NCBI GenBank assembly: GCA_036339735.1
Contig: JAYZAL010000061.1
Span: forward strand, 1 to 31,200
Direction of reading: 5' to 3'
From: Candidatus Poribacteria bacterium
GTDB taxonomy: Bacteria; Poribacteria; WGA-4E; UBA9662
DNA: 31,200 nt
In this document: positions 15,896 through 31,200 of the stretch, one piece after another
Layout: every line of letters starts with the position of its first letter
Position numbering within the stretch: the stretch's first letter is position 1
The notes under the pieces: generated by a model
The model's input: only the letters and a program-made list of their open reading frames with translations
Told to the model about the DNA's origin: nothing
Databases searched by the model: none
Position numbers and translations under genes: made by a program

Positions 15896-17170
15896 CTAAT
15901 TCAAATCTACCGGTTGAAGCCAAGCTGATTCAAAATCATTGTTGGAATACGGATTTTCTTGTAGCTTAGATGAGATTACCTTAGCTCTTACATAAATTTC
16001 ATTTCCCTGAAACTGATAATTTACCTTGGTACCTGATTGGGTACTAAGAATTTTTCCGATTGATTGATGATTAATAATATCTTTCATATCCAGATTCCTA
16101 AACTGGTCTAGGTCTTTAATATCCTCTTTGACAACGCCAATGAATTGGGCGCGGTAGGTTACTCCGTTTTCAGGCTGAATCGTAATATTATAAGAGTTTT
16201 GATCAGATTGGATAGATTCTATATAAACGCCAGTTGAAGCGTAAAAATCTCCTTTTTCCATAGCATAAATAATCGACTCAGCTGTTAAATGAGCCGATTT
16301 AACCATAACCCATCCACGACCGGGATTACTTTTGCTAGTTTGGTAGTCGTGGTAATTGTGTGCGTCATCGGTAGCCAAACCGTATATAAGGCTTTTTTCT
16401 GGTTTAGTTAAGCGATAGGTTAAAATATAATCCCACATTTTTTCGGTACTCATATGGTCTTGATCACCATAGTTCCTGACAGCAGGATGGCCGTTGTAGA
16501 CTTCGAAAAATTTTTCTTTTTCAACTTCAGCTATATCTTTAGCGGTAATGGCCCAACCAAAGTTGGGGTGGTTAAGATGAACTAGGATCGGACGACCTGT
16601 TTCCTCTCTTTGTTGGTAAACGGCGTCTACGTTTTTTCTTATAACCTCTTGAACTGACTGTCCTGTTTGGGGTGGAATTATCGTTTTTAGGTTGGTAGCG
16701 TTGAGATGAACTGGTAGATTAACGTAACGCGCCGTAATCTCCTCACCTTGCATCAACAAGAATTGTGAGGGGGATTCGAATAAGGATCGAAACTCATCGA
16801 GTGGCTTCAAGCGGACACTCAAGCCGGATTCGGTATCCTCCGTCGATTCCACCCACGGGTGCCCAAATTTGGACAAATATTTTTGATAGGCTTCTTTTAC
16901 TGTTTTGCTGGCTGAGGACAACATGATCCATTTATTTCCTTCGGATAGGATGTTATGATCTGATAGCGCCAGAAAATTGTATCCGTGCTCAACATACCAG
17001 CTGACAATCATTTCGGGGAAATCATCGCCATCACTCCACAAAGAATGTGTGTGGAGGTTACCCTTCCACCATTTAGCCTTACTGCTATCTTCAGCTGATA
17101 TTAAAAAATGTAGATTCAGAAAGACCAAGGCCAAAAGAGTTGTTTTCAAAGATGTTTGCCACAAATACAA
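15896..17170 (-). CDS. secreted PHP-domain metallohydrolase (histidinol-phosphatase-like / CehA-McbA-like)
   Basis: Signal-peptide-like N-terminus. Motifs 'KGNLHTHSLWSDG', 'LSDHN', 'NHPNF', 'EVYN' and 'DDAH'. AGGAGA RBS before the TTG start. Confidence 0.85.
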   Translation of the reverse strand: MYLWQTSLKTTLLALVFLNLHFLISAEDSSKAKWWKGNLHTHSLWSDGDDFPEMIVSWYVEHGYNFLALSDHNILSEGNKWIMLSSASKTVKEAYQKYLSKFGHPWVESTEDTESGLSVRLKPLDEFRSLFESPSQFLLMQGEEITARYVNLPVHLNATNLKTIIPPQTGQSVQEVIRKNVDAVYQQREETGRPILVHLNHPNFGWAITAKDIAEVEKEKFFEVYNGHPAVRNYGDQDHMSTEKMWDYILTYRLTKPEKSLIYGLATDDAHNYHDYQTSKSNPGRGWVMVKSAHLTAESIIYAMEKGDFYASTGVYIESIQSDQNSYNITIQPENGVTYRAQFIGVVKEDIKDLDQFRNLDMKDIINHQSIGKILSTQSGTKVNYQFQGNEIYVRAKVISSKLQENPYSNNDFESAWLQPVDLN

Positions 17171-17296: not shown

Positions 17297-18103
17297 TTAA
17301 CTTTGGGCAGAAATATGACGTTGCCAAAGGTTGATAGATTTTTGGCAGAAAAATCTATTGGTCAGCATGAGTCTGGGTTGATTAGACGTATTTGAGCTAA
17401 CTGCATGAAACAACCTAAGATCTATTAAATAAATATCACCAGGATCTCCGGTCAATTCAATAATAGACAAATCAATATCCCCTGATCTACCCTTGTCCAA
17501 TAATAGATTTTCTCGATTTTTGGTTTTGGGTGAAAATAGCTTAGCGAAAAAATGTTCCTGTTTATTGAGTCTTCGTTTTACCTCCTTCGAGGACATGAAA
17601 TCTTGACAATCGAGCATTCGATGTGAACCTGCAATGACTAAAGTACCTCCTCCTTTTGGCTCGACCTGATCAAGAAAAGTAAAAATTTGTAGACCGATGG
17701 GTTGGTTATGGGGCAACCGAGGGAAATCTAGGTGCCACATCGAATACGGTACTACCCATTGGCCATTAGTGGGCAAAGTAATCAAGAACTGCCAAGGACT
17801 TTTTTCATTTTCAGATGAATTTAGATCCATTTGATTTTTAGTCAGAGTAGATACTAAATCTATCAAGTTTTCATGATCAAGCAATTGTAGCTCATCCGTC
17901 TCTTTTAACTCCTTTCTGATGAGTTTTACTTCTGAATCGGGCAAATCTATCAGATCATTTTTTTTGTATTGCCAGTATCCATTTTTTCTGGCACCTCGGT
18001 TCTCAAATGAAGCATAAACACGCTGTCGAATTGGATCAATGGAACTAGAAGGAAAAAACCCCTCTAAGCTAATGATACCTGACTGTTCGAATTCTTTTTG
18101 CAT
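17297..18103 (-). CDS. PhyH family Fe(II)/2OG dioxygenase
   Basis: Motifs 'WHLD', 'GGGTLVIAGSH' and 'G.PGD..L....LFHAVSSN....PRLM'. The start may be the in-frame CTG at 18139, behind an AGGGAG RBS. Confidence 0.85.
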   Translation of the reverse strand: MQKEFEQSGIISLEGFFPSSSIDPIRQRVYASFENRGARKNGYWQYKKNDLIDLPDSEVKLIRKELKETDELQLLDHENLIDLVSTLTKNQMDLNSSENEKSPWQFLITLPTNGQWVVPYSMWHLDFPRLPHNQPIGLQIFTFLDQVEPKGGGTLVIAGSHRMLDCQDFMSSKEVKRRLNKQEHFFAKLFSPKTKNRENLLLDKGRSGDIDLSIIELTGDPGDIYLIDLRLFHAVSSNTSNQPRLMLTNRFFCQKSINLWQRHISAQS

Positions 18104-18664: not shown

Positions 18665-19555
18665 GTGCCAATGACAGCTGTCGTACCCCTCAGAACTCTA
18701 GATCCGATTCAAATAGAAACTTTTCAGAATCAAGGTTATTTAGTGGTTCGACAAGTCGTACCATCATCGGATTTATTGCCCTTGGTAGAGGTCGTTTCAG
18801 GTGTAGTTGATCGGCAAACAGATGATTTGTATGCTGAAGGTAAAATAACTGATCTCTGTCGAGAGGTTGATTTTACACAACGTTGGTATCGGGTTTTGCA
18901 GCAGTTTGGTGGCCAAAATGAAGTTTTTGGGTGGCACACCAGTGTTTTTAGCCAAGCTTTATTCAATTTAATTGTTCACCCGTCAATATTGGATGTAGTA
19001 GGATCTCTAACAGAACATGAGATCCAGTTCAATGGCGATTTTTGGGTTCGACCTAAGTTGCCAGACGAAAAACTGACTACCCTTCCTTGGCACCAAGACA
19101 GTGCTTACATGCCGAATACCGAAAAAAATACTCATTTAACTGTTTGGATGCCGTTGGTCGATGTTGGTGCTGAAAATGGAACATTGCAATTCCTTCCAAA
19201 CAGCCATCTACTAGGTTTAAAGCCCCATCATCATATTGACGGCGAATCATTTAAAACTCCCAATCAGGACCCATCGGTGGGAAGTGATTGTATCGAGACA
19301 TTAAAGATGAAAGTTGGGGACTTAGTTATTTTTCATAATCTTGTCTTTCACCGTTCCCTTTTGAACCGAACAAAGTCAATCCGTTGGTCAGTTGATTTTC
19401 GTTACAGTCAGACAAATACGCCGCTGGGTAATTTATGGCATAAACCCATCTCATGTGTGGTACGGAGTCATTGCTCTCCCAACAAAGTAGCATCTTGGAA
19501 TGATTGGCAAACAATGTGGGAAGATAGTCCTCACAAATCTAGCTTCCGATGGTAA
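18665..19555 (+). CDS. PhyH family Fe(II)/2OG dioxygenase
   Basis: Motifs 'PWHQD', 'TVWMPLVD...ENGTLQFLPNSH' and 'FHRSLLN....IRWSVDFRY'. Confidence 0.92.
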   Translation: MPMTAVVPLRTLDPIQIETFQNQGYLVVRQVVPSSDLLPLVEVVSGVVDRQTDDLYAEGKITDLCREVDFTQRWYRVLQQFGGQNEVFGWHTSVFSQALFNLIVHPSILDVVGSLTEHEIQFNGDFWVRPKLPDEKLTTLPWHQDSAYMPNTEKNTHLTVWMPLVDVGAENGTLQFLPNSHLLGLKPHHHIDGESFKTPNQDPSVGSDCIETLKMKVGDLVIFHNLVFHRSLLNRTKSIRWSVDFRYSQTNTPLGNLWHKPISCVVRSHCSPNKVASWNDWQTMWEDSPHKSSFRW

Positions 19556-20082: not shown

Positions 20083-20190
20083 ATGGGAATGGACAAATAC
20101 AAATTCACTTTACTAGCTAAATCAAAAAAAAATTATCCATCATTGAATCTGTTGTTTTTCTTGCCTGATTTCGTTGAGGTGAAAATATGA
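20083..20190 (+). CDS. possible 35-aa leader ORF coupled to the giant gene
   Basis: AAAGGGAGA just upstream of ATG 20083 (and ATG 20089). Reads MGMDKYKFTLLAKSKKNYPSLNLLFFLPDFVEVKI*, and its TGA overlaps the next ATG (ATGA). Confidence 0.3.
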   Translation: MGMDKYKFTLLAKSKKNYPSLNLLFFLPDFVEVKI

Positions 20191-23100
20191 AAAGACCCGC
20201 CGATCAAAAGATTATCTGCCATATTTACCAGTTACTTGTTGTTGTGCTTTTTTCTACTAGTTTGATGGCGTCACCATATATTTTCGACGGATATGATCAC
20301 CAGCATAATGGGATTGCCCATCACCACAGCCATGATCAAGATGAGTATCAATTTAATCGGCTCTCGGACGCGGTTCCGATTGATTTGAACAAAAACCACT
20401 TGAAAGTTTTACCAGTCTTGTTAATTCCTAGCGATCTGAATCCAACAGTGGCCGATAAAGATACTGTAGCTGGCCAAATTAAGACACTAATGCTAGAAGT
20501 TCAGACTTTTTATCAAGACCAGATGGCAGCAGATGGTTATCTGGATGATGATGGAATAGGAAAAACGTTTGAATTGGTTGAGGACCCATCAGGTCAAGTC
20601 ACTGTCTACCAGAAGGTCGGTGCACATAGCCTTAGTGAATACGATTCGTGGGCCGCGAATTGGAGTGGGAACTTGATCAATAATATATACCCGGATCTAG
20701 GATCAGACAATACGTTACAAGCTGACTACCCGGAAGACAGGACCATCTATTACGTGGTTATGTTAGACGTAGCTTATACAGGTGGTATAGCTAAAGCGAA
20801 TAGCCCAAGTTCGGGCATCTGTGTGGTATCGACAGAAAATTTAAATTCGGCGCTGACTACACATGAACTAGGTCATGCATTTGGTCTAGGTCATGATTGG
20901 AGGCCTGCAACTTTCGGTGCTGATGGCCGGCAAAAATATTATATTTTGGGATACCGTTGGTTTGGTAAGAGTGGGTCAGATATTATTTTATCTAGCCTAG
21001 CTAAGGCTATTGTGGGAAGCAGCCCTTTTTTCAATAGAGGAGATTTTGACAGCTTTGATATTACTGCTTTTTCAGCGCCTCAGATAGAAGTCTCCTCCAA
21101 CTCCTCTTATCCTTCCGGATCGATGACTCATCAAGTAGATTTTACAATTACCGATAATGATGGGCTTCATATGGTTGCTTTCTATGGAAGGGCTGATGTA
21201 GGCAGTTCGTTCAGTAATTATCGTTACAATGGTGATACGGTCCCAATCTCCTCTATACCTGGAGAATCTTTTTCTTTGATCGACGGTAGAACTTCTTTTA
21301 CCGGGTCATATAACTTTGGTACGCATGAATCAGCCACAACCGATTTAGAAACCTTCTATTCACCAGGCTCCTCCAGCCAGCAAGCTGAAGTGCGACAGGT
21401 TTATCTGCTAGCAATTGATAGGACAGGAAAGCAAACCTGGCACAACATATTGCTATATCACGAAAACCGAATTCCAACCAGACATATAATCGAAGCCGGT
21501 GAATCTTTGAATGAGGTTTTGTATTCCAGAGCGTGGCCTAAAGATGAAATTATCTTCAATGCTGATTCTGTCGAGACAGAACCTATTTATATCTACAAGA
21601 ACAACTTGAAAATTTCGTCAGCTGACCCAAAAAACCCTAGACGAATCCCTGTTGAGGTCAGAATCGAGGGCGCAAAATCAATTCGATTAAGTTCTCTTTC
21701 TATGCCTAACGTATATATGGCTCCTGATTCGACCGATATAACGGTTGAAAACTGTGAAATTACCAATCCAAATTCCTACCCGTATGTTGGAGTGGATATT
21801 GGTCAAGGAGCAGAAGTGACTTTGGTCAACACTCTGATCTATGACCATAATGTGGGGGTTCAGCTGGCTGGTGCTGATTTAAGTGTCATCAACTGCACCA
21901 TCGTTGACAACACTTATGAGTTTTTATCTCCAGGAACCAATACTATCAATATTGTTAATACTATTTTTGCTGAAAACTCTTCCGGTTGGGATGTTCCTTC
22001 CTCACAACTGATAAATATATCTAACTCATTATTCGATAGACCTTTACCAACCAATGTCTCAGCTGAGAATGGAAATATATCAGGGGACCCGAAATTCCAA
22101 GATGCAGCAAACAGGGATTATCAATTGCAGGATAGTTCTCCGGCTATTGATGCGGGAAGTACTAACATAACTAGCCTACCAAATACAGATAAGATCGATA
22201 ATCAGCGAATTTTCGGTGATACGGTCGACATAGGTGCTTATGAGAATGGAAGTCTCCGACAAACGGTCACTGTCAATATTCCTGATACCAATCTACGATC
22301 TCTTCTAGAACAAGCACTGGGCAAGGGTAATGGTGACTCCATTACTGACCTTGAACTGGATGGGTTAAGTGGACAACTGGATGCCTCTAGTTCCAGCATT
22401 AGTAATCTAGCCGGTTTAGAATACTGCATTAACTTGACTGTCCTCAATTTGCATGACAACCAGATTAGTGACCTTAGTGCTTTATCCAACTTGTTGACTA
22501 GTCTAACCGAATTGGACCTGTCTCAAAATAGGATCAGTAACATCAGGCCAATATCTAATTTGACTAAGGTGACGGACCTAAATTTGCTGGGCAATCAAAT
22601 AACAGACATAAGTTTATTATCCAATTTAGCTAACTTAATCGAGTTGAATCTGGGTGGGAACCAAATAACTGATATAAGTGTGTTATCCAACCTGTCTAAC
22701 TTGGCAGAACTGAATTTACTCGGCAACCAATTACCTGCTGAGGCAGGACTAATCATACAAGAACTTAAAGATAGGTCCGTAAACGTTACACATGGTTTCA
22801 TTCAAGAACCGATAGATGTCAATATTCCAGATGCTAATTTGCGAAAATTATTAGAATGGGAATTGGGTAAAAATGCTGGAGATCCAATTAACCATCTTGA
22901 AATGGCTAGTATAGTTAGTTTTTGGGGCCTTAATCGTTTAAGTAATTTTATCAGCGACCTAACCGGTTTAGAATATTGTGTTAACCTTACTCGTTTAGAT
23001 TTGAGGCATAATCAATACATTAGCGACCTTAGCCCCTTATCCAATTTGACGAAGCTGACTCACCTCGACCTAGAAGATAATCAGGTTCGCGACCTTAGCC

Positions 23101-26100
23101 CCCTAGCCAATTTGACGAGTCTGACTCATCTATATCTACCCGGTCGTGCTGGTAAAAACCAGATTAGTGATATTGGACCTTTATCCAATCTGACTAACCT
23201 GAAGGTCTTAGTATTAAGCGGCCACCCGTTCGGCGGGAATATTAGTCTTCTATCCAATCTGGTTAACTTGACTTACCTCGATCTAGAAGTTAACCAGGTT
23301 CGCGACCTTAGCCCCCTAGCCAATTTGACGAGTCTGACTCATCTAAATCTTCACATCAACCAGATTAGTGATATTAGTCCCCTATCCAATCTGGTTAACT
23401 TGACTTACTTGAGTCTGGGTGAGAACCAAATTACTAATCTGAGAACTTTGTCTAATCTGACTAACCTAGAGTCCCTACACTTAAGTGGAAACCCGATCAT
23501 CAATATTAGTTCCCTATCCGGTCTGACCAATCTGACTGAATTGTATTTGAGTTCGAACCGCCACCGTGATGAAATCAGAGACATCACCCCCTTATACAGC
23601 CTGACTAGCCTAGAAGAATTAGGCCTGAGTCACACGAAGATTAAAGATACAAGTTTCTTGTACAACATGACTAGATTGACCCGATTAGTTTTAGTAGATA
23701 ATCAGCTTGAAGACATAAACTTTGTTTCCAACTTGACTAATCTGACTGACTTGACGCTAAACTCCTTAATGAGCGAGGAACCATATGCCAACCAAATCAC
23801 CGATATTACTCCTCTGACTCATTTAGACAATTTGACTGAGCTATATCTTTACAACAACCAGATTAGTGATATTGGACCTTTGTCCAATCTGACCAATCTG
23901 AATAGGTTGTATTTGTATTCTAACCAAATTAATGACATTAGCCCGTTGTCTAATCTCAGCAACCTAACAGTCTTGGACTTACAGCAAAACCCATTAACTA
24001 CGCGTTCAACATCGATCATTCAAGAATTAAGGGGGACTGGAGCAACTGTTTTACATGATGATCCACTTCCAGAGGTTGTGATAGCCAGTATTCCCGATAC
24101 TAATCTGAGAAAGTTGCTCGAACAAGAATTGGGTAAGGATGTAGACGATCCTATTTCAGTGTCAGAACTTTCCGCGTTGAGTGATAGACTGGATCTTTCT
24201 GACGCCAACATTGGAGATGTCAGAGGTTTAGAACACTGCAACAACCTAAATGAGCTGAAACTAAATGCTAACCAAATCACCGATATTACGCCTCTGACTC
24301 ATTTAGACAATTTGACTGAGCTATATCTTCACAATAACCAGATTAATGATATTGGACCTTTGTCCAATCTGACCAATCTGACTGAATTGTATTTGTCTTC
24401 TAATCGGATCAGTGACATTATCTCATTGTCTAATCTTAGCAACTTAACCTACTTAGACCTAGAGAACAACCCACTGACGGATAGTGCAGAATCAATCATA
24501 CGGATCCTCCAGAATAATCAGACTACGGTTCAGTACAATCCAATTCCTACCGCATTAGTAGTGAAAATTCCCGATGTTAATTTACGTTATCAGATAGAAC
24601 AAGCCCTCTCTAAAGATTCTGGTGCTTCCATTACTAGGATTGAATTAGGTCAAATAAGTAACTTAGATGCCTCGAATTCTAGTATCACGGACTTGAGAGG
24701 TTTAGAACACTGTACCAACCTGACCAACTTGAATCTAAGTAGTAACCAGATCACGGATCTTGGTCCTTTATACAGCTTGACTAACTTGGGCGATCTTAAT
24801 CTGCATAACAATCAGATTAGTCATCTTGGGATTTTGTCCAATTTGCCTTATCTTTACAGCTTGAATCTATCCGATAACCAACTCGATAATATTGCTTCAT
24901 TATCAAGACTATCCTACCTAGAGGTCTTAGACGTTCAAAACAATCATTTATCTGCCAGTGCCGGAAGTGTCATACAGAAACTCCGAGATGGTGCGACTAC
25001 GGTCATTCATGACCCAATACCCGCAGCAATAATCGTGAATATTCCCGATTCCAATCTGAGAACAGCATTAGAAGGCGAACTGGGTAAAAATCCAGGCGAA
25101 CCTATTACCGATCTGGAGTTATCTGAGTTACATCGCCCAACCGAAGCACAAAATACAGGGGGCTGGTTATATCTCGTATCTAGGAACATTACAGATCTGA
25201 GAGGTTTAGAATACTGTACCAACCTGACCAAATTGAATCTAAGTAGTAACCAGATCACGGATCTTAGTCCTTTGTATAGCTTGACTAACTTGGGCGATCT
25301 TCGTCTGACTAACAATCAGATTAGTGATATTGAACCTTTATCTAGCCTGGTTAATCTTACTAACTTGGAACTCGGAGCGAATCAAATCGACGACACCAGT
25401 CCGTTGTCTAATTTAATTAGCCTGACCGAATTGGCTCTTTCTATCAACCAAATTACTGATGTAAGTTCATTGTCGAGCTTGACTAGCCTTACTGATCTAG
25501 ATCTAAGACATAATCTGGTTAAGGATCTGACTCCTCTGTCAAATTTGAGTGAACTTCGATTTCTGAATCTAGGAGGGAATCGGGTAGACTACATTGGTAG
25601 TTTGTCAAAGAACAATTACCCGCATCTTATCTACCTGGATTTAAAAGAAAACCCGTTGACAGCTAGTGCGGGATCGATCATTCAAGGACTCAAAGATGAC
25701 GGAATTAATGTTGAGCATGAATCGATTCCAGAAGCACAATTCGTCAATTTTCCTGATGCTAATCTAAAAGCTATCTTAGAGCAAGCACTGGGAAAAGATA
25801 GTGGCGCTACAATTACCGACCTTGAACTCAATGAAATTAGCAGGATAGATGCGTCAGGCTCTAACATCACTGACCTGACAGGTTTAGAACTTTGCCATAA
25901 TCTAATTAACTTAGACTTAAGCCACAACCAAATTAGCGGCATTACCTCTTTGGCCGGATTAATTAGCCTGACTGACTTAGATTTAGACAACAACCAGATT
26001 AGCGACATCAGCCCCTTAACTGACTTAATCAACCTTATTAATCTGAATTTAGTTGGTAATCAATTGACGGCTAATGCAGATTCAATTATACATACCTTCA

Positions 26101-29100
26101 AAGAGGCCGGCACAACCGTTATACATGACGAAATACCAGAAATCATCCCTGACGCTAACTTACGCCATAAAATCGAGCAAGCTTTAGGTAAATATTCAGG
26201 TGATCCTATTAGCCATCTGGAGCTAGCTGAACTTAGCCAAAGCCTAGATGCTTCGGGCGCTGGTATCACTGATTTGAGTGGTCTACAACACTGTACTAAC
26301 TTAACTTCTTTAAATCTAAAAAATAACCAAATTGATGATATTACACTCTTGACTAATCTGAGTAACTTGACTCAGTTAGAGTTGTCAGGGAATAACATTA
26401 GCGACCTTAGCTCTCTATCCAGGTTGACTACACTTAACCAACTCGAACTGGAAGATAACTCGCTGACGAGTATAGGTGATCTCAAAGATCTAGTCCAACT
26501 TCAAGTTTTGCGGCTGGATAAGAACCAAATCACTGAAATCAGTTCTCTGTCCGGACTGAATCAATTAATCGAATTAAGTCTTTCAGGAAACCAGATTGTT
26601 GACATTAGTTCTTTGTCCCGGCTGACTGATTTAGCTAAACTCCATTTATATGAGAACGAGATCATCGATCTTAGACCAATTTCTGACTTGACTGATCTGA
26701 CTAGATTAAGTTTATCCGATAATAAAATTACCAATCTTAGCCCTTTAGAAAAATTAACCCAACTAACTCATATCTATCTGGACGGTAACGAGGTTAGCGA
26801 CCTGAGCATTTTGTCCAACTTGGATAACGCTACCGAATTATGGTTGGGCCAAAACCAGATTCGTGACATCAGCCCCTTATCGAATTTAGCTGGCTTAACA
26901 AATCTAAGCTTGCCTGACAATCAGATCAGTTATCTTGGCACCGTGGACAGCTTGAACCAACTAGCCATAATAGATCTGAGAGATAACCAAATAAGTCACA
27001 TTAACGAGTTATCCGACTTATCTCAGTTGTCGGAATTGAAACTGGAAGGGAATCCGTTAAAAGCTGGTGCTCGGTCGATTATACAAGACTTGAAAACTGA
27101 TGGTGCCATCGTAACACACGATGAAATTCCTACTAATATCATCGAAGACTCAAACCTAAGAGCTGTACTTCAAGAAGCTTTAAATATAAGTCAAAACGAC
27201 CCAGTCACCGCAGCCGACCTAGATGACCCGAATTTGACAACTTTAACAGCAAGTGGACGCTCAATATCTGATTTGACAGGTTTGGAATATGGGATTTATC
27301 TAACCAACCTTGATTTAAGCGGAAATGATATCGACAATATTACCCCTTTATTAAGTCATTCGGGGCTTGGCAGCGGTCATGTGGTTGACTTGACAGGAAA
27401 CCCATTAACCTACGAAATATATTCCAAACAAATTCCAGCCTTAACAGAAAAAGGAGTAACAGTCTACTTCAATCCTCCCGGCGATACTATTTTTATTCCT
27501 GATGCCAATCTTCAAAGAATACTGGCAACTGCTTTTGGCTTAGAAGACACAAATCAGTTTATTCCTTCATCACACTTTTCTACTTTGACTGAACTTGATG
27601 CCCCATTGTCATCTATTACCAACCTAAATGGATTGGAACACTGTGTCAACCTGAAACAATTGTCATTGGAATATAATAATATCAATAACATTGACATACT
27701 TAGTTCTCTAAATCAATTGTCTTACCTCGCTCTAAGTTTTAACCAGATTGACGACATCTCGTCCTTAGAAGAATTGATCAATCTCGACGAAGTCTATCTC
27801 GATAACAACAGAATAAAAAACATCCAATCTTTGGTCGATAATGATGGCATTGATTCTGATAGCGACTACCTACTCTTGACGCACAATCCATTGAGCAATG
27901 TTTCAATGACACATCTAATTCCTCAATTAGAAAGCAGGAATGTAACAGTAAGCGCAGATTATATTGATAATGTGATTGCTTTTTCAGATCCAAATTTAGA
28001 AGGTCTAATTCGGGCAAAATTGGACCAACCTATAGAATTATTAACGACTACTAATACCTCCAGCCTTAAAGATTTAGATGCCCAAAACTCCGGTATAACT
28101 AATTTAGATGGCTTGAATGATTTGAAAAACCTAAATGAGCTAAATATTAGTTTTAATCCACTAAGCGAACATGCGGCATTTCACCAGATTGATGAACTGC
28201 AAATCAGTGGTGTAGAGGTAACTCATGCCGTTGGGCATTGGTTAGTTGATCGACAACAAGACTCAGATCCAATCGAAGTTTTATCTAAACCGGATGAGAT
28301 TGACTCTGAGCCTGATCTAGCATCAACTCCCTACTTGGATGGTACTCACGACTGGGTTGCAATACCTAATCGTATTTTGATTAATTTAGGTGGACCTTCG
28401 GTTAATAAGACTATCACCACTATTTTCAAGGTCGATAATTCCTCAATTGAGCAGCATAAACAAGTGATTTATGAGCAAGGAGGAGACAAACGCGGTCTTA
28501 ACCTATATGTTCACAAAGGTCGGTTATATGGAGGCGGATATAACAGAGAAGTTAGTGAAAATAATTGGCAGGGTGAATGGATTTCTACTTCTATTAGTTC
28601 CGACAAGTGGTATAAGGCTTCTTTGGTTTTACGGCGGAACACTCAAGTCATTGAAGATATTAACCTAGAGCTTTGGCTCAATGGGAACCTGATTTCTATT
28701 CAACCGGCCGCTAAAATTTATGGTGATACTGGCGAAATTGGTATTGGAAATGTCAATCAATCCACACTATTTCATGATGGTACTAGCCGTCAACAACCGA
28801 ACCATTTTTTTGCTGGTTCAATTGCTAGTATTTCTATCTATAATACAGCTCTTCCTGAAAACAGCTTGCAAGCTATGACGATTGGATCTTTAGCTAGTTT
28901 AGAAACCATCTGGTCAGATGACCCAGAACAACCATCAACAATTGAGTATAGTTCCGATGAAATAATTAAACCACTAGGAAAACTGAATTTTAAGCCTGTT
29001 AATGGTAGCAGTACGATAAAAAGTATTAGATGGTATTTAGCGCCAGATGGTCATGGGGATGAATTGGATGCTCCGAAAACGCTGGCCAATCCAGCTGCCA

Positions 29101-31200
29101 TTAAATTATACGGATATATCGGGGACAAAAATGAAGATCGTCTAATTTCTACAGCTGAGACGTCTGGTCAAGGTAATAGTTTCGTATTCAAATTTGGCCC
29201 GACCTCATCTGAAAATCAAAATGAAGATGTTTTATTCTCCGTCAATTCAGGGGAAACATTCTATATCGATTTAGCGATTGATCCTAGCAAATTAACAACG
29301 CTCGAAAATCGACAACAAATAGTACAGCTAAGTTTGTCTCTGAGTAATATCGAGACTACTGCTGTCGGTGGATTAAGTCAATCCTATGATGATTATGGCC
29401 AACCGAAGGGCCATCGCTGGAGAGATGAACTCCAGCCAGCATTGGATTCTCCATTAGAGATTAGAGTGGAATTAGTCAAAAAACAACCACTGACCGTATC
29501 ACCGAAGTTTGTTGAGCTCCGTTACCAAGCAGGTGGTGTCACCCAGATGTATGATCCTTCAACTGACAATTGGGTGTCTCCGAGAATAATTTTCACCAAT
29601 GAAACCAGCTTAGAAAAAACTTATTCACTAGAAGAGACAGCTCGAGTTTCACCGCCCGGTTTGGTATCACTCACACCGGTTGACAGTGATTCTAATAATC
29701 CGTTACCTGATGGGTCAGCGGATATTAGCGACATTAAAACTTTGTTTACTGATGACGATCTGACTGTAGAAATTAGCTATAGTGGAGCTTTGACTCACCA
29801 TCAAGATCAGAAAATTATCGGCCAAATATTGATAGACACAGGCCGGCCTGACAACACTATGTCAGCACCTCCGGCTAGTCATTTCGGCTTTGGATCCAAC
29901 CAGACAATGGCAGTCGATTTACAGGTTGAATTGATCCAAGTTAATGGGAAAGTTGTAGCTGAATTGAATGACACTCAGGATTCCGACCCAATCGGTCGTT
30001 TCTTGGTCAAGCACGTTTTTGGTCAAGCCGGCCAAACCAATCAGTTACTGGTTAGAATTCCTAGGTCTTTGTTGGATAAGTCGGATAAACAACCGATCGG
30101 TTTAGCGGTTCAGCTGGAGGAAGATTGGATGCCGAATCGGGATTTACAGGCTGCGACCATCGCTTTTACTGATGTTGGACCTTGGACACCAACTGACCTC
30201 AGCTGGTTCCAGCTGGAAGCCAATAATGTAGCCTTAGGCATAGATGAAGCAACGAAAACTAAAAGTTTAAATGTCACTATGCCAAATCCACCAAGTGCAG
30301 GTATTCACTATGCCAGTCTAAAAATTGATGATGGTAATGGCTTCTCATTCAATCTCCCAATCAGTCTGTCGGTCAGTGATAACCAATTAGCCAACTTAGA
30401 CATAAGACCTAGGACAGTGGGTGAAGATATTCTAGTCCGGGTAGGTGACACCTACCAATTCTCCGTGATTGGAAAGGATATTAATGGTCTGAACGTGGAT
30501 ATCAGCGGACAAACAGTCATCAACTGGGTTGTGGGTGATCCTACCAAAGGTGGAGTATCGTCCACTGGTTTATTTAATGCTATTGCTGTTGGTTCAGTCA
30601 GAGTGGAAGCTAGTATTGGCAATGTGGTAGGTCAATCGGCTAGGATCGAGATTATAGAGAAGATTTTGGGCGATTCGACTGGTACGACTCCATCGATAGA
30701 CTACCCAGATGGTCAGCCAGATGGCAAAGTAGATATCTTTGATCTGGTCAATATGGCTAATCATTGGCATCAGACTGAATCTGATACAACTGCCAGTGTT
30801 AAGGAGTTTAAAGCTCTGGATATTGCTGGTAAAGGTGGATTCGATCAGGTAGACAAGAAAGTTGATATTTTTGATCTAGTAGTTTTAGTAGACAATTACG
30901 GTACTGGAATAACACCTGCACCTGCACTGGCCGCACCGGCGATCCTGGCTTCATTACCCACTTTCGAGGGTGGAAGTAGCGATTTGCAAGTAGTCAGCAC
31001 CGATAATACCAGTCAATCTGGTAGCCGAGTTCGTACGATTATTGATCAGCAAATCGAGCTAGACATACTACTGAATCAAGTGCCTAATCTGTATGCCTAT
31101 AGCTACGATCTGGTCTACGATCAACAAAAGTTAGACTTAATAACTCAGGAAGATGGCCGACCTGTCTTCCAAGATGGATCTATGTTCAGAACTGAAACGG
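20187..31200 (+). CDS. giant secreted multidomain protein (>3670 aa, 3' end outside the window): zinc metalloprotease, beta-helix, 10 LRR modules, LamG, Ig, dockerin, cohesin-like
   Basis: GAGGTG RBS and ATG 20187. Manual translation stays open to the window end (MKRPADQKIICHIYQLLVVVLFSTSLMA... to ...FQDGSMFRTET). The lack of any long + ORF here in the supplied track agrees with there being no in-frame stop. Confidence 0.93.
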   Translation, partial: MKRPADQKIICHIYQLLVVVLFSTSLMASPYIFDGYDHQHNGIAHHHSHDQDEYQFNRLSDAVPIDLNKNHLKVLPVLLIPSDLNPTVADKDTVAGQIKTLMLEVQTFYQDQMAADGYLDDDGIGKTFELVEDPSGQVTVYQKVGAHSLSEYDSWAANWSGNLINNIYPDLGSDNTLQADYPEDRTIYYVVMLDVAYTGGIAKANSPSSGICVVSTENLNSALTTHELGHAFGLGHDWRPATFGADGRQKYYILGYRWFGKSGSDIILSSLAKAIVGSSPFFNRGDFDSFDITAFSAPQIEVSSNSSYPSGSMTHQVDFTITDNDGLHMVAFYGRADVGSSFSNYRYNGDTVPISSIPGESFSLIDGRTSFTGSYNFGTHESATTDLETFYSPGSSSQQAEVRQVYLLAIDRTGKQTWHNILLYHENRIPTRHIIEAGESLNEVLYSRAWPKDEIIFNADSVETEPIYIYKNNLKISSADPKNPRRIPVEVRIEGAKSIRLSSLSMPNVYMAPDSTDITVENCEITNPNSYPYVGVDIGQGAEVTLVNTLIYDHNVGVQLAGADLSVINCTIVDNTYEFLSPGTNTINIVNTIFAENSSGWDVPSSQLINISNSLFDRPLPTNVSAENGNISGDPKFQDAANRDYQLQDSSPAIDAGSTNITSLPNTDKIDNQRIFGDTVDIGAYENGSLRQTVTVNIPDTNLRSLLEQALGKGNGDSITDLELDGLSGQLDASSSSISNLAGLEYCINLTVLNLHDNQISDLSALSNLLTSLTELDLSQNRISNIRPISNLTKVTDLNLLGNQITDISLLSNLANLIELNLGGNQITDISVLSNLSNLAELNLLGNQLPAEAGLIIQELKDRSVNVTHGFIQEPIDVNIPDANLRKLLEWELGKNAGDPINHLEMASIVSFWGLNRLSNFISDLTGLEYCVNLTRLDLRHNQYISDLSPLSNLTKLTHLDLEDNQVRDLSPLANLTSLTHLYLPGRAGKNQISDIGPLSNLTNLKVLVLSGHPFGGNISLLSNLVNLTYLDLEVNQVRDLSPLANLTSLTHLNLHINQISDISPLSNLVNLTYLSLGENQITNLRTLSNLTNLESLHLSGNPIINISSLSGLTNLTELYLSSNRHRDEIRDITPLYSLTSLEELGLSHTKIKDTSFLYNMTRLTRLVLVDNQLEDINFVSNLTNLTDLTLNSLMSEEPYANQITDITPLTHLDNLTELYLYNNQISDIGPLSNLTNLNRLYLYSNQINDISPLSNLSNLTVLDLQQNPLTTRSTSIIQELRGTGATVLHDDPLPEVVIASIPDTNLRKLLEQELGKDVDDPISVSELSALSDRLDLSDANIGDVRGLEHCNNLNELKLNANQITDITPLTHLDNLTELYLHNNQINDIGPLSNLTNLTELYLSSNRISDIISLSNLSNLTYLDLENNPLTDSAESIIRILQNNQTTVQYNPIPTALVVKIPDVNLRYQIEQALSKDSGASITRIELGQISNLDASNSSITDLRGLEHCTNLTNLNLSSNQITDLGPLYSLTNLGDLNLHNNQISHLGILSNLPYLYSLNLSDNQLDNIASLSRLSYLEVLDVQNNHLSASAGSVIQKLRDGATTVIHDPIPAAIIVNIPDSNLRTALEGELGKNPGEPITDLELSELHRPTEAQNTGGWLYLVSRNITDLRGLEYCTNLTKLNLSSNQITDLSPLYSLTNLGDLRLTNNQISDIEPLSSLVNLTNLELGANQIDDTSPLSNLISLTELALSINQITDVSSLSSLTSLTDLDLRHNLVKDLTPLSNLSELRFLNLGGNRVDYIGSLSKNNYPHLIYLDLKENPLTASAGSIIQGLKDDGINVEHESIPEAQFVNFPDANLKAILEQALGKDSGATITDLELNEISRIDASGSNITDLTGLELCHNLINLDLSHNQISGITSLAGLISLTDLDLDNNQISDISPLTDLINLINLNLVGNQLTANADSIIHTFKEAGTTVIHDEIPEIIPDANLRHKIEQALGKYSGDPISHLELAELSQSLDASGAGITDLSGLQHCTNLTSLNLKNNQIDDITLLTNLSNLTQLELSGNNISDLSSLSRLTTLNQLELEDNSLTSIGDLKDLVQLQVLRLDKNQITEISSLSGLNQLIELSLSGNQIVDISSLSRLTDLAKLHLYENEIIDLRPISDLTDLTRLSLSDNKITNLSPLEKLTQLTHIYLDGNEVSDLSILSNLDNATELWLGQNQIRDISPLSNLAGLTNLSLPDNQISYLGTVDSLNQLAIIDLRDNQISHINELSDLSQLSELKLEGNPLKAGARSIIQDLKTDGAIVTHDEIPTNIIEDSNLRAVLQEALNISQNDPVTAADLDDPNLTTLTASGRSISDLTGLEYGIYLTNLDLSGNDIDNITPLLSHSGLGSGHVVDLTGNPLTYEIYSKQIPALTEKGVTVYFNPPGDTIFIPDANLQRILATAFGLEDTNQFIPSSHFSTLTELDAPLSSITNLNGLEHCVNLKQLSLEYNNINNIDILSSLNQLSYLALSFNQIDDISSLEELINLDEVYLDNNRIKNIQSLVDNDGIDSDSDYLLLTHNPLSNVSMTHLIPQLESRNVTVSADYIDNVIAFSDPNLEGLIRAKLDQPIELLTTTNTSSLKDLDAQNSGITNLDGLNDLKNLNELNISFNPLSEHAAFHQIDELQISGVEVTHAVGHWLVDRQQDSDPIEVLSKPDEIDSEPDLASTPYLDGTHDWVAIPNRILINLGGPSVNKTITTIFKVDNSSIEQHKQVIYEQGGDKRGLNLYVHKGRLYGGGYNREVSENNWQGEWISTSISSDKWYKASLVLRRNTQVIEDINLELWLNGNLISIQPAAKIYGDTGEIGIGNVNQSTLFHDGTSRQQPNHFFAGSIASISIYNTALPENSLQAMTIGSLASLETIWSDDPEQPSTIEYSSDEIIKPLGKLNFKPVNGSSTIKSIRWYLAPDGHGDELDAPKTLANPAAIKLYGYIGDKNEDRLISTAETSGQGNSFVFKFGPTSSENQNEDVLFSVNSGETFYIDLAIDPSKLTTLENRQQIVQLSLSLSNIETTAVGGLSQSYDDYGQPKGHRWRDELQPALDSPLEIRVELVKKQPLTVSPKFVELRYQAGGVTQMYDPSTDNWVSPRIIFTNETSLEKTYSLEETARVSPPGLVSLTPVDSDSNNPLPDGSADISDIKTLFTDDDLTVEISYSGALTHHQDQKIIGQILIDTGRPDNTMSAPPASHFGFGSNQTMAVDLQVELIQVNGKVVAELNDTQDSDPIGRFLVKHVFGQAGQTNQLLVRIPRSLLDKSDKQPIGLAVQLEEDWMPNRDLQAATIAFTDVGPWTPTDLSWFQLEANNVALGIDEATKTKSLNVTMPNPPSAGIHYASLKIDDGNGFSFNLPISLSVSDNQLANLDIRPRTVGEDILVRVGDTYQFSVIGKDINGLNVDISGQTVINWVVGDPTKGGVSSTGLFNAIAVGSVRVEASIGNVVGQSARIEIIEKILGDSTGTTPSIDYPDGQPDGKVDIFDLVNMANHWHQTESDTTASVKEFKALDIAGKGGFDQVDKKVDIFDLVVLVDNYGTGITPAPALAAPAILASLPTFEGGSSDLQVVSTDNTSQSGSRVRTIIDQQIELDILLNQVPNLYAYSYDLVYDQQKLDLITQEDGRPVFQDGSMFRTET
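20400..21450 (+). other. metzincin-type zinc metalloprotease domain plus adjoining beta domain of the giant protein
   Basis: HELGHAFGLGH (HExxHxxGxxH) encoded at 20862-20894, preceded by 'EVQTFYQDQM...G.GKTFEL'. Boundaries approximate. Confidence 0.85.
21480..22245 (+). other. right-handed parallel beta-helix with a choice-of-anchor-Q-like tail
   Basis: Coils 'ITVENCEITN', 'LVNTLIYDH', 'VINCTIVDN' and 'IVNTIFAEN', then 'GDPKFQDAANRDYQLQDSSPAIDAG...VDIGAYE'. Confidence 0.85.
22278..28227 (+). repeat. array of ten capped internalin/SDS22-type leucine-rich-repeat modules (~67 repeats of 22 aa)
   Basis: N-caps of the form '(I/F)PDxNLR..(L/I)EQALGK..G..IT..EL' start at about 22278, 22824, 24090, 24567, 25041, 25749, 26145, 27141, 27495 and 27981. 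Repeats follow 'LTxLxLxxNQIxDIxPLSNL'. C-caps follow 'NPL....SIIQ.L...G.TV.H'. Confidence 0.93.
28230..28875 (+). other. LamG-like jellyroll (concanavalin A-like) domain
   Basis: Motifs 'LDGTHDWVAIP', 'KQVIYEQGGDKRGLNLYV', 'DKWYKASLV', 'LWLNG' and 'FAGSIASISIYNTAL'. Confidence 0.85.
30387..30660 (+). other. bacterial Ig-like (Big_2-type) domain
   Basis: 'LDIRP...VRVGDTYQFSVIGKDING...NWVVGDPTKGGVSSTGLFNAIAVGSVRVEASIG'. Confidence 0.8.
30669..30902 (+). other. dockerin-like duplicated Ca2+-binding motif
   Basis: 'GD...DGKVDIFDLVNMANHW' and 'LD...DKKVDIFDLVVLVDNYG', followed by a 'PAPALAAP' linker. Confidence 0.8.
31040..31200 (+). other. start of a cohesin-like beta-sandwich (truncated by the window)
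   Basis: 'QQIELDILLNQVPNLYAYSYDLVYDQQKL' fits the cohesin pattern 'v.v.v....nl.g.qf.l.YD...L'. Confidence 0.55.

What the first reader, a model, noticed from the sequence alone, without database searches (positions are those of the whole stretch)
22278..28227. Ten independently capped LRR solenoids of very different lengths strung in series
Seen in sequence: not one long solenoid but ten units, each with its own N-cap and C-cap. My manual repeat counts are about 6, 16, 5, 5, 8, 4, 13, 3, 5 and 2. A cap cysteine ('GL(E/Q)xC') is kept in 8 of 10 units. Known: internalins carry a single capped LRR domain, and lamprey VLRs get diversity from variable repeat number between fixed caps. Inference: a one-chain repertoire of distinct binders, each with a different concave surface, steering one protease to many targets.
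Basis: partly seen in the sequence, partly recalled or inferred. Interest (0 to 1): 0.75.

Follow-up and report, generated by a model that had tools for sequence, protein, structure and literature searches.

The report
Ten capped LRR domains behind a protease
A giant secreted protein of a free-living marine Poribacterium really does carry ten separately capped leucine-rich-repeat domains in a row behind a mucinase-like metalloprotease, but such multi-domain LRR chains turn out to be common in uncultured bacteria and show no sign of being a fast-evolving binder repertoire.

Summary
Residues 698-2686 of a 3' open ORF of more than 3671 aa hold ten internalin-type LRR domains. Each has a helical N-cap and a helix-plus-strand C-cap. 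Repeat counts are 6, 16, 5, 5, 8, 4, 13, 3, 5 and 2, and a cap cysteine is present in 8 of 10.

The full protein (3858 aa in near-identical metagenome copies) reads: signal peptide, metzincin head, beta-helix, ten LRR domains, LamG, Ig-like, dockerin/cohesin-like parts, T9SS-type sorting tail. The head's predicted fold and its family profile match the O-glycopeptidases OgpA and AMUC_1438.

Related heads in other Poribacteria carry 1-2 such LRR domains in 18 of 31 ORFs examined, so a protease-LRR link is plausible. The "repertoire" reading is not supported:
- Concave positions are no more polymorphic than convex ones (25/228 vs 27/304).
- The array is better conserved than the protein's tail.
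- Chains of 10-13 capped LRR domains also occur in proteins without any protease.

The array is not invariant. A same-genus genome has only domains 8-10 and no head. Two near-identical variants show in-frame repeat-unit deletions, which may be assembly artefacts.

Verdict: a new variant of a known kind, of moderate interest. The scan noted tandem capped-LRR modules before, in another genome.

The parts
20187..20270 (+). Signal-peptide-like N-terminus (aa 1-28)
   Evidence: Read by eye from the translation: basic start, hydrophobic stretch, then LMA|SP. The first 33 aa are 67% identical to the start of the G001 homologue.
20319..21596 (+). Metzincin-like head (catalytic domain plus beta-sandwich), OgpA/AMUC_1438-like; zinc motif HELGHAFGLGHD at 20862-20897
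   Evidence: Family profile A3 against PDB: 8dek E 1.9e-13, 6z2d E 8.8e-12. AF2 model with mean pLDDT 64.6. Foldseek: 6z2p E 2.6e-15, TMt 0.59; 8df2 E 7.5e-15. Pfam gives only sub-threshold Reprolysin hits. The head alone against PDB is not significant (E 0.04).
21684..22277 (+). Right-handed beta-helix-like region with a choice-of-anchor Q domain
   Evidence: NCBIfam choice_anch_Q, 41.8 bits (cut-off 25), at aa 643-686. Pfam DUF5123 at 25.5 bits is below its cut-off of 35.1. The fold itself was not modelled.
22278..22823 (+). LRR module 1 (aa 698-879), 6 repeats, cap Cys 747
22824..24089 (+). LRR module 2 (aa 880-1301), 16 repeats, five of irregular length, cap Cys 931. It holds the sites of the 44-aa deletion, the mosaic tract and the left end of the 160-aa deletion seen in variants
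24090..24566 (+). LRR module 3 (aa 1302-1460), 5 repeats, cap Cys 1351
   Evidence: AF2 pLDDT above 90 over most of it. A 241-nt repeat is 83% identical to the end of module 2.
24567..25040 (+). LRR module 4 (aa 1461-1618), 5 repeats, cap Cys 1509
   Evidence: A 203-nt repeat is 80% identical to module 5.
25041..25748 (+). LRR module 5 (aa 1619-1854), 8 repeats, cap Cys 1677, N-cap with a 10-aa insertion
25749..26144 (+). LRR module 6 (aa 1855-1986), 4 repeats, cap Cys 1903
26145..27140 (+). LRR module 7 (aa 1987-2318), 13 repeats, cap Cys 2036
27141..27494 (+). LRR module 8 (aa 2319-2436), 3 repeats, no cap Cys, C-cap of the IPxLxxxGVxV type. It is the first of the three modules shared with the G001 homologue
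27495..27980 (+). LRR module 9 (aa 2437-2598), 5 repeats, cap Cys 2486
27981..28244 (+). LRR module 10 (aa 2599-2686), 2 repeats (cap repeat plus the NPL repeat), no cap Cys
28332..28853 (+). LamG / concanavalin-A-like lectin domain
   Evidence: Not found by Pfam in this copy. The aligned stretch of the G001 homologue scores Laminin_G_3 35.6 bits, cut-off 27.6. The Atlas lead scores 0.84 and is a lead only.
30435..30635 (+). Big_2-like Ig domain (below cut-off)
   Evidence: Pfam Big_2 21.3 bits against a cut-off of 22.8.
30720..30902 (+). Two dockerin-like Ca-binding segments (motif KVDIFDLV, twice)
   Evidence: Read by eye; no Pfam hit in this protein. Dockerin_1 is found at the same place in other multi-LRR proteins (P0010, P0017, P0023).
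31053..31199 (+). Start of a cohesin-like domain, cut by the contig end. The full-length copy continues for about 187 aa to a T9SS-type sorting domain
   Evidence: P0003: Cohesin 19.4 bits (cut-off 24.1) and Por_Secre_tail 26.3 bits (cut-off 27). The G001 homologue scores Por_Secre_tail 27.4 bits. The 3' end is not assembled in G000.

Best explanation
The finding lies in a giant surface or secreted protein of a pelagic Poribacterium.

Shown:
- The domain order is signal peptide, metzincin head of the OgpA/AMUC_1438 kind, beta-helix, ten internalin-type LRR domains each with its own N-cap and C-cap and joined by linkers of about 5-10 residues, LamG-like lectin domain, Ig-like parts, dockerin/cohesin-like parts, and a type-IX-secretion-type C-terminal sorting domain.
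- The ten LRR domains are old and diverged from each other, and they are conserved in the population.
- The same head family is habitually joined to 1-2 such LRR domains in other Poribacteria.

Inferred:
- The C-terminal tail fixes the protein to the cell surface.
- The LRR chain acts both as a long segmented arm, tens of nanometres if extended, and as a row of protein-binding exosites with different acidic, Tyr/His-rich concave faces.
- These sites hold glycoprotein-rich material (marine particles, mucus, eukaryotic surfaces) so that the distal head can cut it.

The protein arose by joining a head + beta-helix + modules 1-7 block onto an older 'modules 8-10 + LamG + tail' protein. It is occasionally remodelled by ordinary recombination between similar repeats.
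For: Architecture.

Caps and independent folding. Foldseek best matches are InlA, InlF and the Roco LRR, E 1e-22 to 4e-19. The N-cap aligns to InlA residues 14-131 and to repebody N-caps.

Head:
- Profile against PDB: AMUC_1438 E 1.9e-13, OgpA E 8.8e-12.
- Predicted fold: OgpA E 2.6e-15, TMt 0.59-0.61; AMUC_1438 E 7.5e-15. The next hits are ADAM33 and fragilysin at about 1e-5.
- Passages read in PMC9513282 state that both are metzincin O-glycopeptidases of a large, mostly environmental family.
- The zinc motif is invariant in 12/12 variants.

Head-LRR coupling: 7 of 11 plus 11 of 20 head-bearing ORFs of other Poribacteria have 1-2 N-caps downstream. P0005 has two such heads and many LRR domains.

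Surface export:
- Por_Secre_tail scores 26.3 bits in P0003 and 27.4 bits in the G001 homologue.
- There are 20 Por_Secre_tail matches, and about 38 places with paralogous tails, in this genome.
- Kamke 2014 (passages read) reports this tail on poribacterial repeat proteins.

Conservation: LRR region 97/1989 polymorphic sites against 131/982 in the tail. Own copy against G002: 16 differing codons of 1946.

Distinct concave faces.

Composite origin: the G001 ORF of 1841 aa aligns at 59% identity over 1564 aa, from module 8 to the end, and has neither a head nor modules 1-7. Modules 1-7 and 8-10 have different C-cap types.

Presence and possible expression: 14 DNA runs and 6 RNA-library runs of marine or seawater samples hold it.
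Against: - No binding partner, substrate or activity is shown.
- The head alone has no significant PDB sequence match (E 0.04). Its model is only moderately confident: mean pLDDT 64.6, with the stretch after the zinc motif below 50, so a Met-turn could not be checked. Pfam and NCBIfam place it in no peptidase family above cut-off.
- Concave and convex faces are equally polymorphic. This fits a passive spacer as well as it fits a binder.
- Multi-LRR chains exist without any enzyme.
- The sorting tail is not in the window and scores just under the Pfam cut-off in P0003. SprA_N gives only a sub-threshold match in the genome (22.5 bits against 27).
- RNA-library contigs do not prove transcription.
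Confidence: 0.5

Rival explanations
1. Purely structural stalk. The ten LRR domains are a rigid or semi-rigid spacer that holds the head and beta-helix away from the cell surface, as Ig-like repeats do in giant adhesins. They have no ligands of their own.
For: - The head is at the far N-terminus and the sorting tail at the C-terminus.
- Linkers are short and conserved, 5-10 aa.
- Concave sites are no more and no less polymorphic than convex ones (25/228 vs 27/304).
- The array is strongly conserved between the two MAGs.
- Foldseek TMq of 0.64-0.66 for the two-module model against single long solenoids hints that neighbouring modules may line up.
Against: - Relatives of the head carry only 1-2 LRR domains, which is too short for a stalk.
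- Each unit keeps both caps instead of fusing into one solenoid.
- Concave faces differ strongly between modules and are rich in Tyr, His, Asp and Glu, while convex faces keep a consensus.
- The inter-module linker is predicted with pLDDT below 50, and pTM is 0.65.
Confidence: 0.25
2. Multivalent adhesin independent of the protease. The LRR chain, with LamG and dockerin/cohesin, mediates attachment to eukaryotic cells, particles or other bacteria (a 'eukaryote-like protein' role). The head is a passenger gained by fusion.
For: - The G001 homologue has modules 8-10 + LamG + tail and no head.
- P0010 has 12 directly abutting capped modules. P0011 has 13 N-caps, with 7 C-caps found by my model. 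In both, the first module starts right after a signal-peptide-like N-terminus and no enzyme domain is present.
- Dockerin_1 and FlgD_ig tails recur in such proteins.
- Poribacterial LRR and WD40 proteins carrying Por tails were reported before (passages read).
Against: - The head-LRR pairing recurs in 18 of 31 poribacterial ORFs and in P0005. This is hard to explain if the two parts were functionally unrelated.
- The organism is a seawater lineage, not a sponge symbiont. This rests on the G002 record title, the sample labels and earlier notes.
Confidence: 0.15
3. Evolving binder repertoire. Intragenic recombination among repeats creates strain-level diversity of binding surfaces, in a loose analogy to VLR assembly.
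For: - Two of 12 variants have in-frame deletions that lie exactly between identical repeat tracts. One removes 160 aa and fuses modules 2 and 3; the other removes 44 aa, which is 2 repeats.
- Two variants carry a mosaic tract replacing about one repeat length (29 aa) across two adjacent repeats.
- DNA repeats of 241 nt (83% identical) and 109 nt (86%) lie at those places.
Against: - Of the 12 other copies, 10 keep the array indel-free apart from one residue; 9 of these cover all ten modules.
- There is no excess of change at concave positions.
- Modules are mostly 60-70% identical at the DNA level, which means they are old.
- The contigs of the four runs that I laid break exactly at these repeats, and none shows the deletion joints. 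The deletions may therefore be assembler collapses.
- No sign of a dedicated diversification mechanism was noticed among the annotated neighbours in the window, and none was searched for.
Confidence: 0.07

Closest known systems
Listeria internalin domain (InlA, InlB, InlF; PDB 1o6t, 2omz, 4fmz, 1h6t)
   Same: Both have a helical N-cap followed by 22-residue repeats of the type LxxLxLxxNxIxDIxxLxxLxxL. Sequence matches cover InlA residues 14-131. Foldseek gives E 1e-22 with 31-35% identity. NCBIfam internalin models are the best hits.
   Different: Here there are ten domains per chain instead of one. There is no Ig-like inter-repeat domain (LRR_adjacent was not found); each domain ends in a helix + strand C-cap instead. 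There is no LPXTG or GW anchor but a T9SS-type tail. NCBIfam scores are far below the cut-offs (752 against 1600). The host is a marine Poribacterium.
Uncharacterised multi-LRR proteins of public metagenomes
   Same: They have the same capped domain type, many copies in series with unequal repeat numbers, short junctions of C-cap followed directly by N-cap, and often a dockerin and a FlgD_ig/Por-type tail. Among the top 150 representatives, 131 have 2 or more N-caps, 55 have 5 or more, and 3 have 10 or more.
   Different: Most carry no enzyme head. None is described in a paper that my searches found. The present protein adds a metzincin head, a beta-helix and LamG.
OgpA and AMUC_1438 O-glycopeptidases of Akkermansia muciniphila (PDB 6z2d/6z2p, 8dek/8df2)
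   Same: Both have a metzincin-type zinc motif and a catalytic domain plus beta-sandwich. The profile match is E 1.9e-13 and the fold match is E 2.6e-15 to 8.7e-13. In both cases an accessory binding module is fused: the NPCBM/CBM51-like module in AMUC_1438 (passages read).
   Different: Identity to the model is only 13-16%. Glycan-binding residues and the Met-turn were not verified. The accessory part here is a chain of LRR domains, not a carbohydrate-binding module. Activity is untested.
Slit (animal axon-guidance protein) with four LRR domains D1-D4
   Same: Several LRR domains, each with its own caps, are strung in one secreted chain. One passage read in PMC3691968 confirms the four domains. 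That the separate domains bind different partners is recalled.
   Different: Slit is eukaryotic, with 24-residue repeats and cysteine-rich disulfide-bonded LRRNT/LRRCT caps (recalled). Here there is one buried Cys or none per domain. This is analogy, not shown homology of the arrangement.
EndoS of Streptococcus pyogenes (Pfam LRR_EndoS, PF23952)
   Same: A short capped LRR domain sits inside a secreted enzyme that acts on a glycoprotein. The Pfam model matches each of the ten modules (10 stretches, 134.3 bits).
   Different: EndoS has one LRR domain and a glycosidase, not a peptidase. The role of the LRR domain in EndoS is only recalled and was not checked here.

Membership tests
Class 1 internalins (Listeria) | Helical N-cap plus 22-residue LRRs | tested here: met
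   PDB sequence matches to InlA, InlB and InlF include the cap. AF2 places helices at residues 10-20 and 30-34 before the first strand. Foldseek gives E 1e-22.
Class 1 internalins (Listeria) | Ig-like inter-repeat (LRR_adjacent) domain after the LRRs and an LPXTG/GW wall anchor; score above the NCBIfam cut-off | tested here: not met
   No LRR_adjacent hit. The C-terminus is Por_Secre_tail-like. internalin_A scores 752 bits against a cut-off of 1600, and InlH 644.8 against 1050.
Pfam LRR_EndoS (PF23952) capped LRR domain | Score above the gathering cut-off, whole-domain match | tested here: met
   131.1 bits in P0001. 134.3 bits with 10 stretches in P0003, the best covering profile positions 1-116.
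OgpA/AMUC_1438 metzincin O-glycopeptidases | Zinc motif HExxHxxGxxH | tested here: met
   HELGHAFGLGHD at aa 226-237, invariant in 12/12 variants and in 11 poribacterial paralogues.
OgpA/AMUC_1438 metzincin O-glycopeptidases | Sequence or fold similarity of the catalytic and beta-sandwich domains | tested here: met
   Profile A3: E 1.9e-13 and 8.8e-12. Foldseek: E 2.6e-15, TMt about 0.6 over roughly 400 columns. Caveats: model pLDDT is 64.6, and the head alone gives E 0.04.
OgpA/AMUC_1438 metzincin O-glycopeptidases | Met-turn and O-glycan-binding residues; glycan-dependent cleavage | tested here: inconclusive
   The stretch after the zinc motif has pLDDT below 50. Residue-level comparison was not done, and activity is not testable with these tools.
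Type IX secretion cargo | C-terminal Por_Secre_tail / TIGR04183-type sorting domain | tested here: inconclusive
   The tail is absent from the window because the contig ends. P0003 scores 26.3 bits against a cut-off of 27; the G001 homologue scores 27.4 bits. There are 20 matches elsewhere in the genome.
Type IX secretion cargo | T9SS machinery in the genome | tested here: inconclusive
   Only SprA_N was searched. It gave one sub-threshold match (22.5 bits against 27) in a 2176-aa ORF. Other components were not searched.
Slit-type tandem LRR architecture | Several LRR domains in one chain, each with its own caps | tested here: met
Slit-type tandem LRR architecture | Cysteine-rich, disulfide-bonded LRRNT/LRRCT caps | tested here: not met
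   There is at most one Cys per module and none in the C-caps. The Slit cap chemistry is recalled.
Lamprey VLR-like diversification | Hypervariable concave face; repeat cassettes assembled between fixed caps | tested here: not met
   Concave 25/228 against convex 27/304 polymorphic sites, p 0.46. 10 of 12 variants have the same array. There are only occasional repeat-unit deletions and one mosaic tract.

The most novel reading that the evidence does not exclude
Bacteria may possess a widespread, undescribed class of 'poly-LRR' surface proteins: Slit-like chains of up to 13 separately capped internalin-type domains exported with T9SS-type tails. In these, each domain would be an independent binding site. 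In Poribacteria this class would have been recruited as the substrate-capturing arm of OgpA-like O-glycopeptidases. The present protein would then be a cell-bound 'fishing line' that binds several different glycoprotein targets of marine particles and feeds them to one protease, with repeat-level recombination adjusting the set between strains.
Probability: 0.2. Interest if true: 0.7.

Novelty: new variant of a known kind. Interest (0 to 1): 0.48.

Why it matters
Structural and functional work on bacterial LRR proteins, as far as I recall it, has centred on single-domain virulence factors such as internalins and YopM. This case and its relatives show that environmental bacteria often string many separately capped LRR domains into one exported chain. 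That arrangement is otherwise familiar from animal Slit.

The fusion to a head resembling the Akkermansia O-glycopeptidases extends that recently defined peptidase family to free-living ocean bacteria. It also suggests how such cells might hold and cut glycoprotein-rich marine particles.

It offers a natural set of ten small, stable, differently surfaced LRR domains for binding studies.

It is not a new kind of machine, and nothing suggests immune-like diversification.

Tried and rejected
- Metagenome scan for relatives of the post-LRR domain: 88 pattern matches, none confirmed. The genome-contig scan found only the G002 contig.
- Head profile A2 against PDB was swamped by WD40 repeats that follow the head in some paralogues. 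I trimmed it to A3.
- Own head alone against PDB: nothing significant.
- Pfam and NCBIfam on the head: only sub-threshold reprolysin-like hits.
- Read laying to test the 480-nt and 132-nt deletion alleles: only Logan contigs were available. They break at the repeat borders (23111, 23324, 23840, 24320, 24758, 25262), and the listed joints have sides under 30 nt. The alleles could therefore be neither confirmed nor excluded.
- Codon-level dN/dS by position class: DNA was available only for G002, which differs at 16 of 1946 LRR codons (9 amino-acid-changing, 7 synonymous).
- N-cap nearest-neighbour comparison to see whether the ten modules arose by internal duplication: identities of 45-65% both to each other and to caps of other proteins gave no resolution.
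- Literature searches for bacterial tandem LRR domains found no relevant paper. One search used 'tandem LRR domains' and 'internalin'. One search used four phrases and listed 25 of 176 papers. One search (Poribacteria + cohesin + dockerin) found one unrelated preprint.
- The relative orientation of neighbouring modules could not be read, because no model coordinates or PAE are returned.
- Assembly chimera rejected: there are independent copies in G002 and in ENA assemblies.
- The two minus-strand ORFs inside the region (25007-25315 and 25682-26032) were taken as chance frames inside the giant gene and not studied further.

Full report
**1. What is there**

The window is a whole 31.2-kb contig (C61) of a 4.32-Mb MAG with 107 contigs, 92% complete. 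Its last 11 kb are one ORF, 20187..31199 (+), 3671 aa, with no stop before the contig end.

A motif scan finds ten N-caps of the type IPDxNLRxxLExxLGK at aa 698, 880, 1302, 1461, 1619, 1855, 1987, 2319, 2437 and 2599. HMMs built from these confirm them and find ten C-caps of the type NPLxxxxxxIIxxLxxxGxxVxH. Segmentation gives 6, 16, 5, 5, 8, 4, 13, 3, 5 and 2 repeats, 67 in total. The GLExC cysteine is present in 8 of 10 modules.

Three checks do not depend on my own models:
- Pfam's whole-domain model LRR_EndoS matches ten stretches in the full-length copy.
- The consensus of 120 unrelated homologues shows both caps.
- AlphaFold2 on modules 3+4 (121-row alignment) gives mean pLDDT 86.4. There are helices before the first strand of each module (10-20 and 30-34; 169-181) and a helix after the last (139-148; 296-306, followed by strand 310-312). 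pLDDT is above 90 over most of both modules. It is below 50 in the linker (151-163) and in one N-cap loop (181-191). pTM is 0.65.

Foldseek's best matches are internalin A, InlF and the Chlorobium Roco LRR (E 1e-22 to 4e-19). PDB sequence matches include the internalin N-cap.

**2. The whole protein**

Near-identical full-length copies exist in public assemblies, for example P0003 of 3858 aa. They add about 187 aa: the rest of a cohesin-like domain (19.4 bits, cut-off 24.1) and a Por_Secre_tail-type sorting domain (26.3 bits, cut-off 27). In G000 this 3' end is not assembled. The genome holds about 38 places with paralogous tails, which probably broke the assembly.

In front of the LRRs lie three parts:
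- a signal-peptide-like start (read by eye);
- a head with the motif HELGHAFGLGHD;
- a region with a choice-of-anchor Q domain (41.8 bits) that looks like a beta-helix. It was not modelled.

Behind the LRRs lie three more:
- a LamG-like domain, supported through the homologue's Laminin_G_3 score of 35.6 bits and an Atlas lead of 0.84;
- a Big_2-like domain, below cut-off;
- two dockerin-like segments (read by eye).

**3. The head**

Pfam gives only sub-threshold reprolysin-like hits, and the head alone finds nothing significant in the PDB.

A 12-row profile of the catalytic region, built with homologues from other Poribacteria (A3), hits AMUC_1438 (8dek/8df2, E 1.9e-13) and OgpA (6z2d, E 8.8e-12). 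Snake-venom and ADAM metalloproteinases follow at 1e-5 or worse.

An AlphaFold2 model of the head is only moderately confident: mean pLDDT 64.6, with the core at 70-93 and the stretch after the zinc motif below 50. Its nine best structural matches are those same two enzymes (E 2.6e-15 to 8.7e-13, TMt 0.48-0.61, about 400 columns). ADAM33 follows at 7e-6.

Passages read in PMC9513282 describe AMUC_1438 as a Tn-antigen-dependent O-glycopeptidase of the metzincin class. It is related to OgpA and founds a large, mostly environmental family. More precisely, it is probably a relative of O-glycopeptidases. The Met-turn, glycan-binding residues and activity are unverified.

**4. Organism and setting**

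The sister MAG's contig is titled 'Candidatus Poribacteria bacterium'. Earlier notes of this scan call the genome a free-living marine Poribacterium.

Marine and seawater metagenomes from 11 studies hold at least 77% of the stretch's sampled words. Six RNA-library runs hold 26-68%. One of them covers all 30 bins with contigs, which does not prove transcription.

The neighbours are metabolic genes: four PhyH, GH32, GH43, M20, DUF6807 and DegT. They give no clue to the protein's function.

**5. Is the array a diversifying repertoire?**

Variation between repeats. Across 38 canonical 22-mers, entropy is 3.22 bits at concave positions 3, 5, 7 and 8. It is 2.24 bits at convex exposed positions and 0.47 bits at framework positions. 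The assignment of faces follows internalin structures as I recall them. The ten concave faces are thus very different. They are acidic and polar with many Tyr and His: D32, S31, N30, E27, G20, Y18 and H15 of 228.

Variation in the population. Among 13 copies at 96% identity or more (own, G002 and 11 collection proteins; they are not independent, and this is amino-acid level only), the polymorphic sites are:

| Site class | Polymorphic / total | Share |
|---|---|---|
| Concave | 25/228 | 11.0% |
| Convex | 27/304 | 8.9% |
| Framework | 8/399 | 2.0% |
| N-caps | 18/528 | 3.4% |
| C-caps | 9/289 | 3.1% |
| Whole LRR region | 97/1989 | 4.9% |
| Head | 24/697 | 3.4% |
| Tail | 131/982 | 13.3% |

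Concave against convex gives Fisher p 0.46. Several of the concave changes belong to one mosaic tract.

Own copy against G002: the LRR region differs at 16 of 1946 codons (9 amino-acid-changing, 7 synonymous), the head at 4 of 681 and the tail at 92 of 929. That is too little for dN/dS.

Exposed residues vary more than buried ones, as in any LRR protein. There is no concave-specific excess, and the array is among the best-conserved parts of the protein.

**6. Is the array invariant?**

It is not.

(a) A same-genus genome (G001, about 91% complete) has an 1841-aa ORF with the same signal peptide. It then has about 300 aa of Ig-like sequence and only three LRR modules. These align with modules 8, 9 and 10, with module 8 one repeat shorter. 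LamG and the rest of the tail follow. Identity to P0003 is 59% over 1564 aa, from aa 2320 to the end, and there is no zinc motif. In G001 a head + beta-helix ORF without LRRs lies elsewhere. Modules 1-7 share one C-cap type (SIIQxLKxxG) and modules 8-10 another (IPxLxxxGVxV). The giant protein therefore looks like a head + beta-helix + seven-module block joined to an older three-module protein.

(b) Of the 12 other near-identical copies, 10 keep the array apart from one residue. P0002 lacks 160 aa, exactly between identical tracts of modules 2 and 3, which would fuse them into nine modules. P0295 lacks 44 aa (two repeats) between two LSNLVNLTYL tracts. P0287 and P0288 carry a mosaic tract in module 2.

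DNA repeats of 241 nt (83% identical, spacing 480) and 109 nt (86%) sit at these places. Logan contigs of four runs break exactly there, and none shows the deletion joints. The deletions may therefore be assembler collapses. The mosaic tract is not a simple collapse.

**7. How unusual is the architecture?**

A search of 1.84 billion representatives with modules 3+4 gives 70,185 hits at E 1e-3 or better and 4,962 at 1e-30 or better.

Of the best 150, my N-cap HMM finds 2 or more caps in 131, 5 or more in 55, 8 or more in 8, and 10 or more in 3. Direct junctions of C-cap followed by N-cap occur at least once in 27 and at least five times in 4 (the C-cap model is narrow).

P0010 (2464 aa) has 12 N-caps and 12 C-caps, all abutting, spaced 138-229 aa. 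P0011 (2157 aa) has 13 N-caps spaced 117-249 aa. Both start right after a signal-peptide-like N-terminus and have no enzyme domain. Dockerin_1 with a FlgD_ig/Por-type tail follows the LRRs in P0010, P0017 and P0023; P0028 has the FlgD_ig tail without a dockerin hit.

Smaller relatives come from Poribacteria, Desulfobacterales, Spirochaetales, Anaerolineales, Bacillota and Listeria, and are named 'internalin A' or 'LRR domain-containing protein'.

In this genome the protein holds 10 of the 14 N-caps found.

I found no paper on such bacterial chains. Kamke et al. 2014 (passages read) already noted abundant LRR and WD40 genes with Por-type tails in Poribacteria. This scan noted a four-module capped-LRR array in another genome before.

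**8. Head-LRR coupling**

I fetched 32 regions around head matches in other Poribacteria. The first 12 were chosen among the best or largest hits. The next 20 were taken in E-value rank from the remaining matches, with a few skipped.

They yielded 31 ORFs with the zinc motif. Of these, 7 of 11 and 11 of 20 carry one or two internalin-type N-caps downstream, and none carries more than two. Some have WD40 repeats behind the head.

A 5552-aa metagenome protein (P0005) has two such heads, many LRR domains of another subtype and two of this subtype. The pairing is thus a family habit. This supports a functional link, for example an exosite or targeting domain. The expansion to ten domains is confined to one lineage among the genomes searched.

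**9. The cap cysteine**

It aligns with a buried framework position. In 708 N-caps of other proteins this position is Ala 428, Cys 120, gap 112 and Leu 32. With at most one Cys per module it cannot form intramodule disulfides.

**10. Verdict**

The thing is real, old, conserved and probably expressed.

It is best read as a surface-exported O-glycopeptidase-like enzyme on a long arm of ten separately folded LRR binding domains. I cannot separate 'binder row' from 'stalk' with these tools. The VLR-like repertoire idea is not supported. The architecture is a large example of a widespread but undescribed class, and the enzyme fusion and its composite origin are the new points.

Interest is moderate (0.48). 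Novelty: new variant of a known kind.

Noticed in passing
L019, L020, L023, L024 (sponge-type Poribacteria genomes G012, G024, G032): In several paralogues the same metzincin head is followed by WD40 repeats before the LRR module(s). The head family is therefore combined with more than one kind of protein-binding repeat.
   Followed up: partly
P0005 (5552-aa ENA protein): A giant protein with two copies of the OgpA-like head. It has about a dozen LRR domains of a different, 24-residue subtype, each with a Cys-containing N-cap and followed by an Ig-like domain. It also has two internalin-type modules, each followed by an Ig-like stretch (read by eye), and cadherin/FN3 domains.
   Followed up: partly
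L016 (G001:C41), frame +0, aa positions 818-2973 of the frame: A head + beta-helix ORF of 1102 aa is followed, after a single in-frame stop, by a 1052-aa ORF in the same frame. This may be a broken gene, a read-through or a sequencing error.
   Followed up: no
window 31092-31199 and about 38 places in G000: The cohesin-like + sorting-tail cassette is repeated on about 30 contigs at 33-52% identity, often at the ends of ORFs of 1000-7400 aa. It probably caused the contig break at the end of this window.
   Followed up: partly
window 3061-3801, 14861-15709 (-), 17297-18103 (-), 18665-19555: There are four PhyH-family (phytanoyl-CoA dioxygenase-like) genes within 17 kb. GH32, GH43, an M20 peptidase, DUF6807, a DegT aminotransferase, a GFO/IDH/MocA oxidoreductase and a cupin lie among them.
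   Followed up: no
L014 / G002:C119: The G002 assembly carries 124 ambiguity codes across the 11.6 kb aligned with the window. They are concentrated at window 29600-30400 (59 of them) and probably reflect strain mixtures.
   Followed up: no
window 29200-31199: The 3' third of the gene is much more diverged between G000 and G002 (99 of the 137 fixed differences lie beyond 29200) than the first 9 kb. This hints at a recombination boundary or relaxed or diversifying selection on the tail.
   Followed up: partly
window 425-2806 (+), 10758-11615 (+), 15896-17170 (-): Three ORFs of 793, 285 and 424 aa have no Pfam family at E 1e-5 or better.
   Followed up: no
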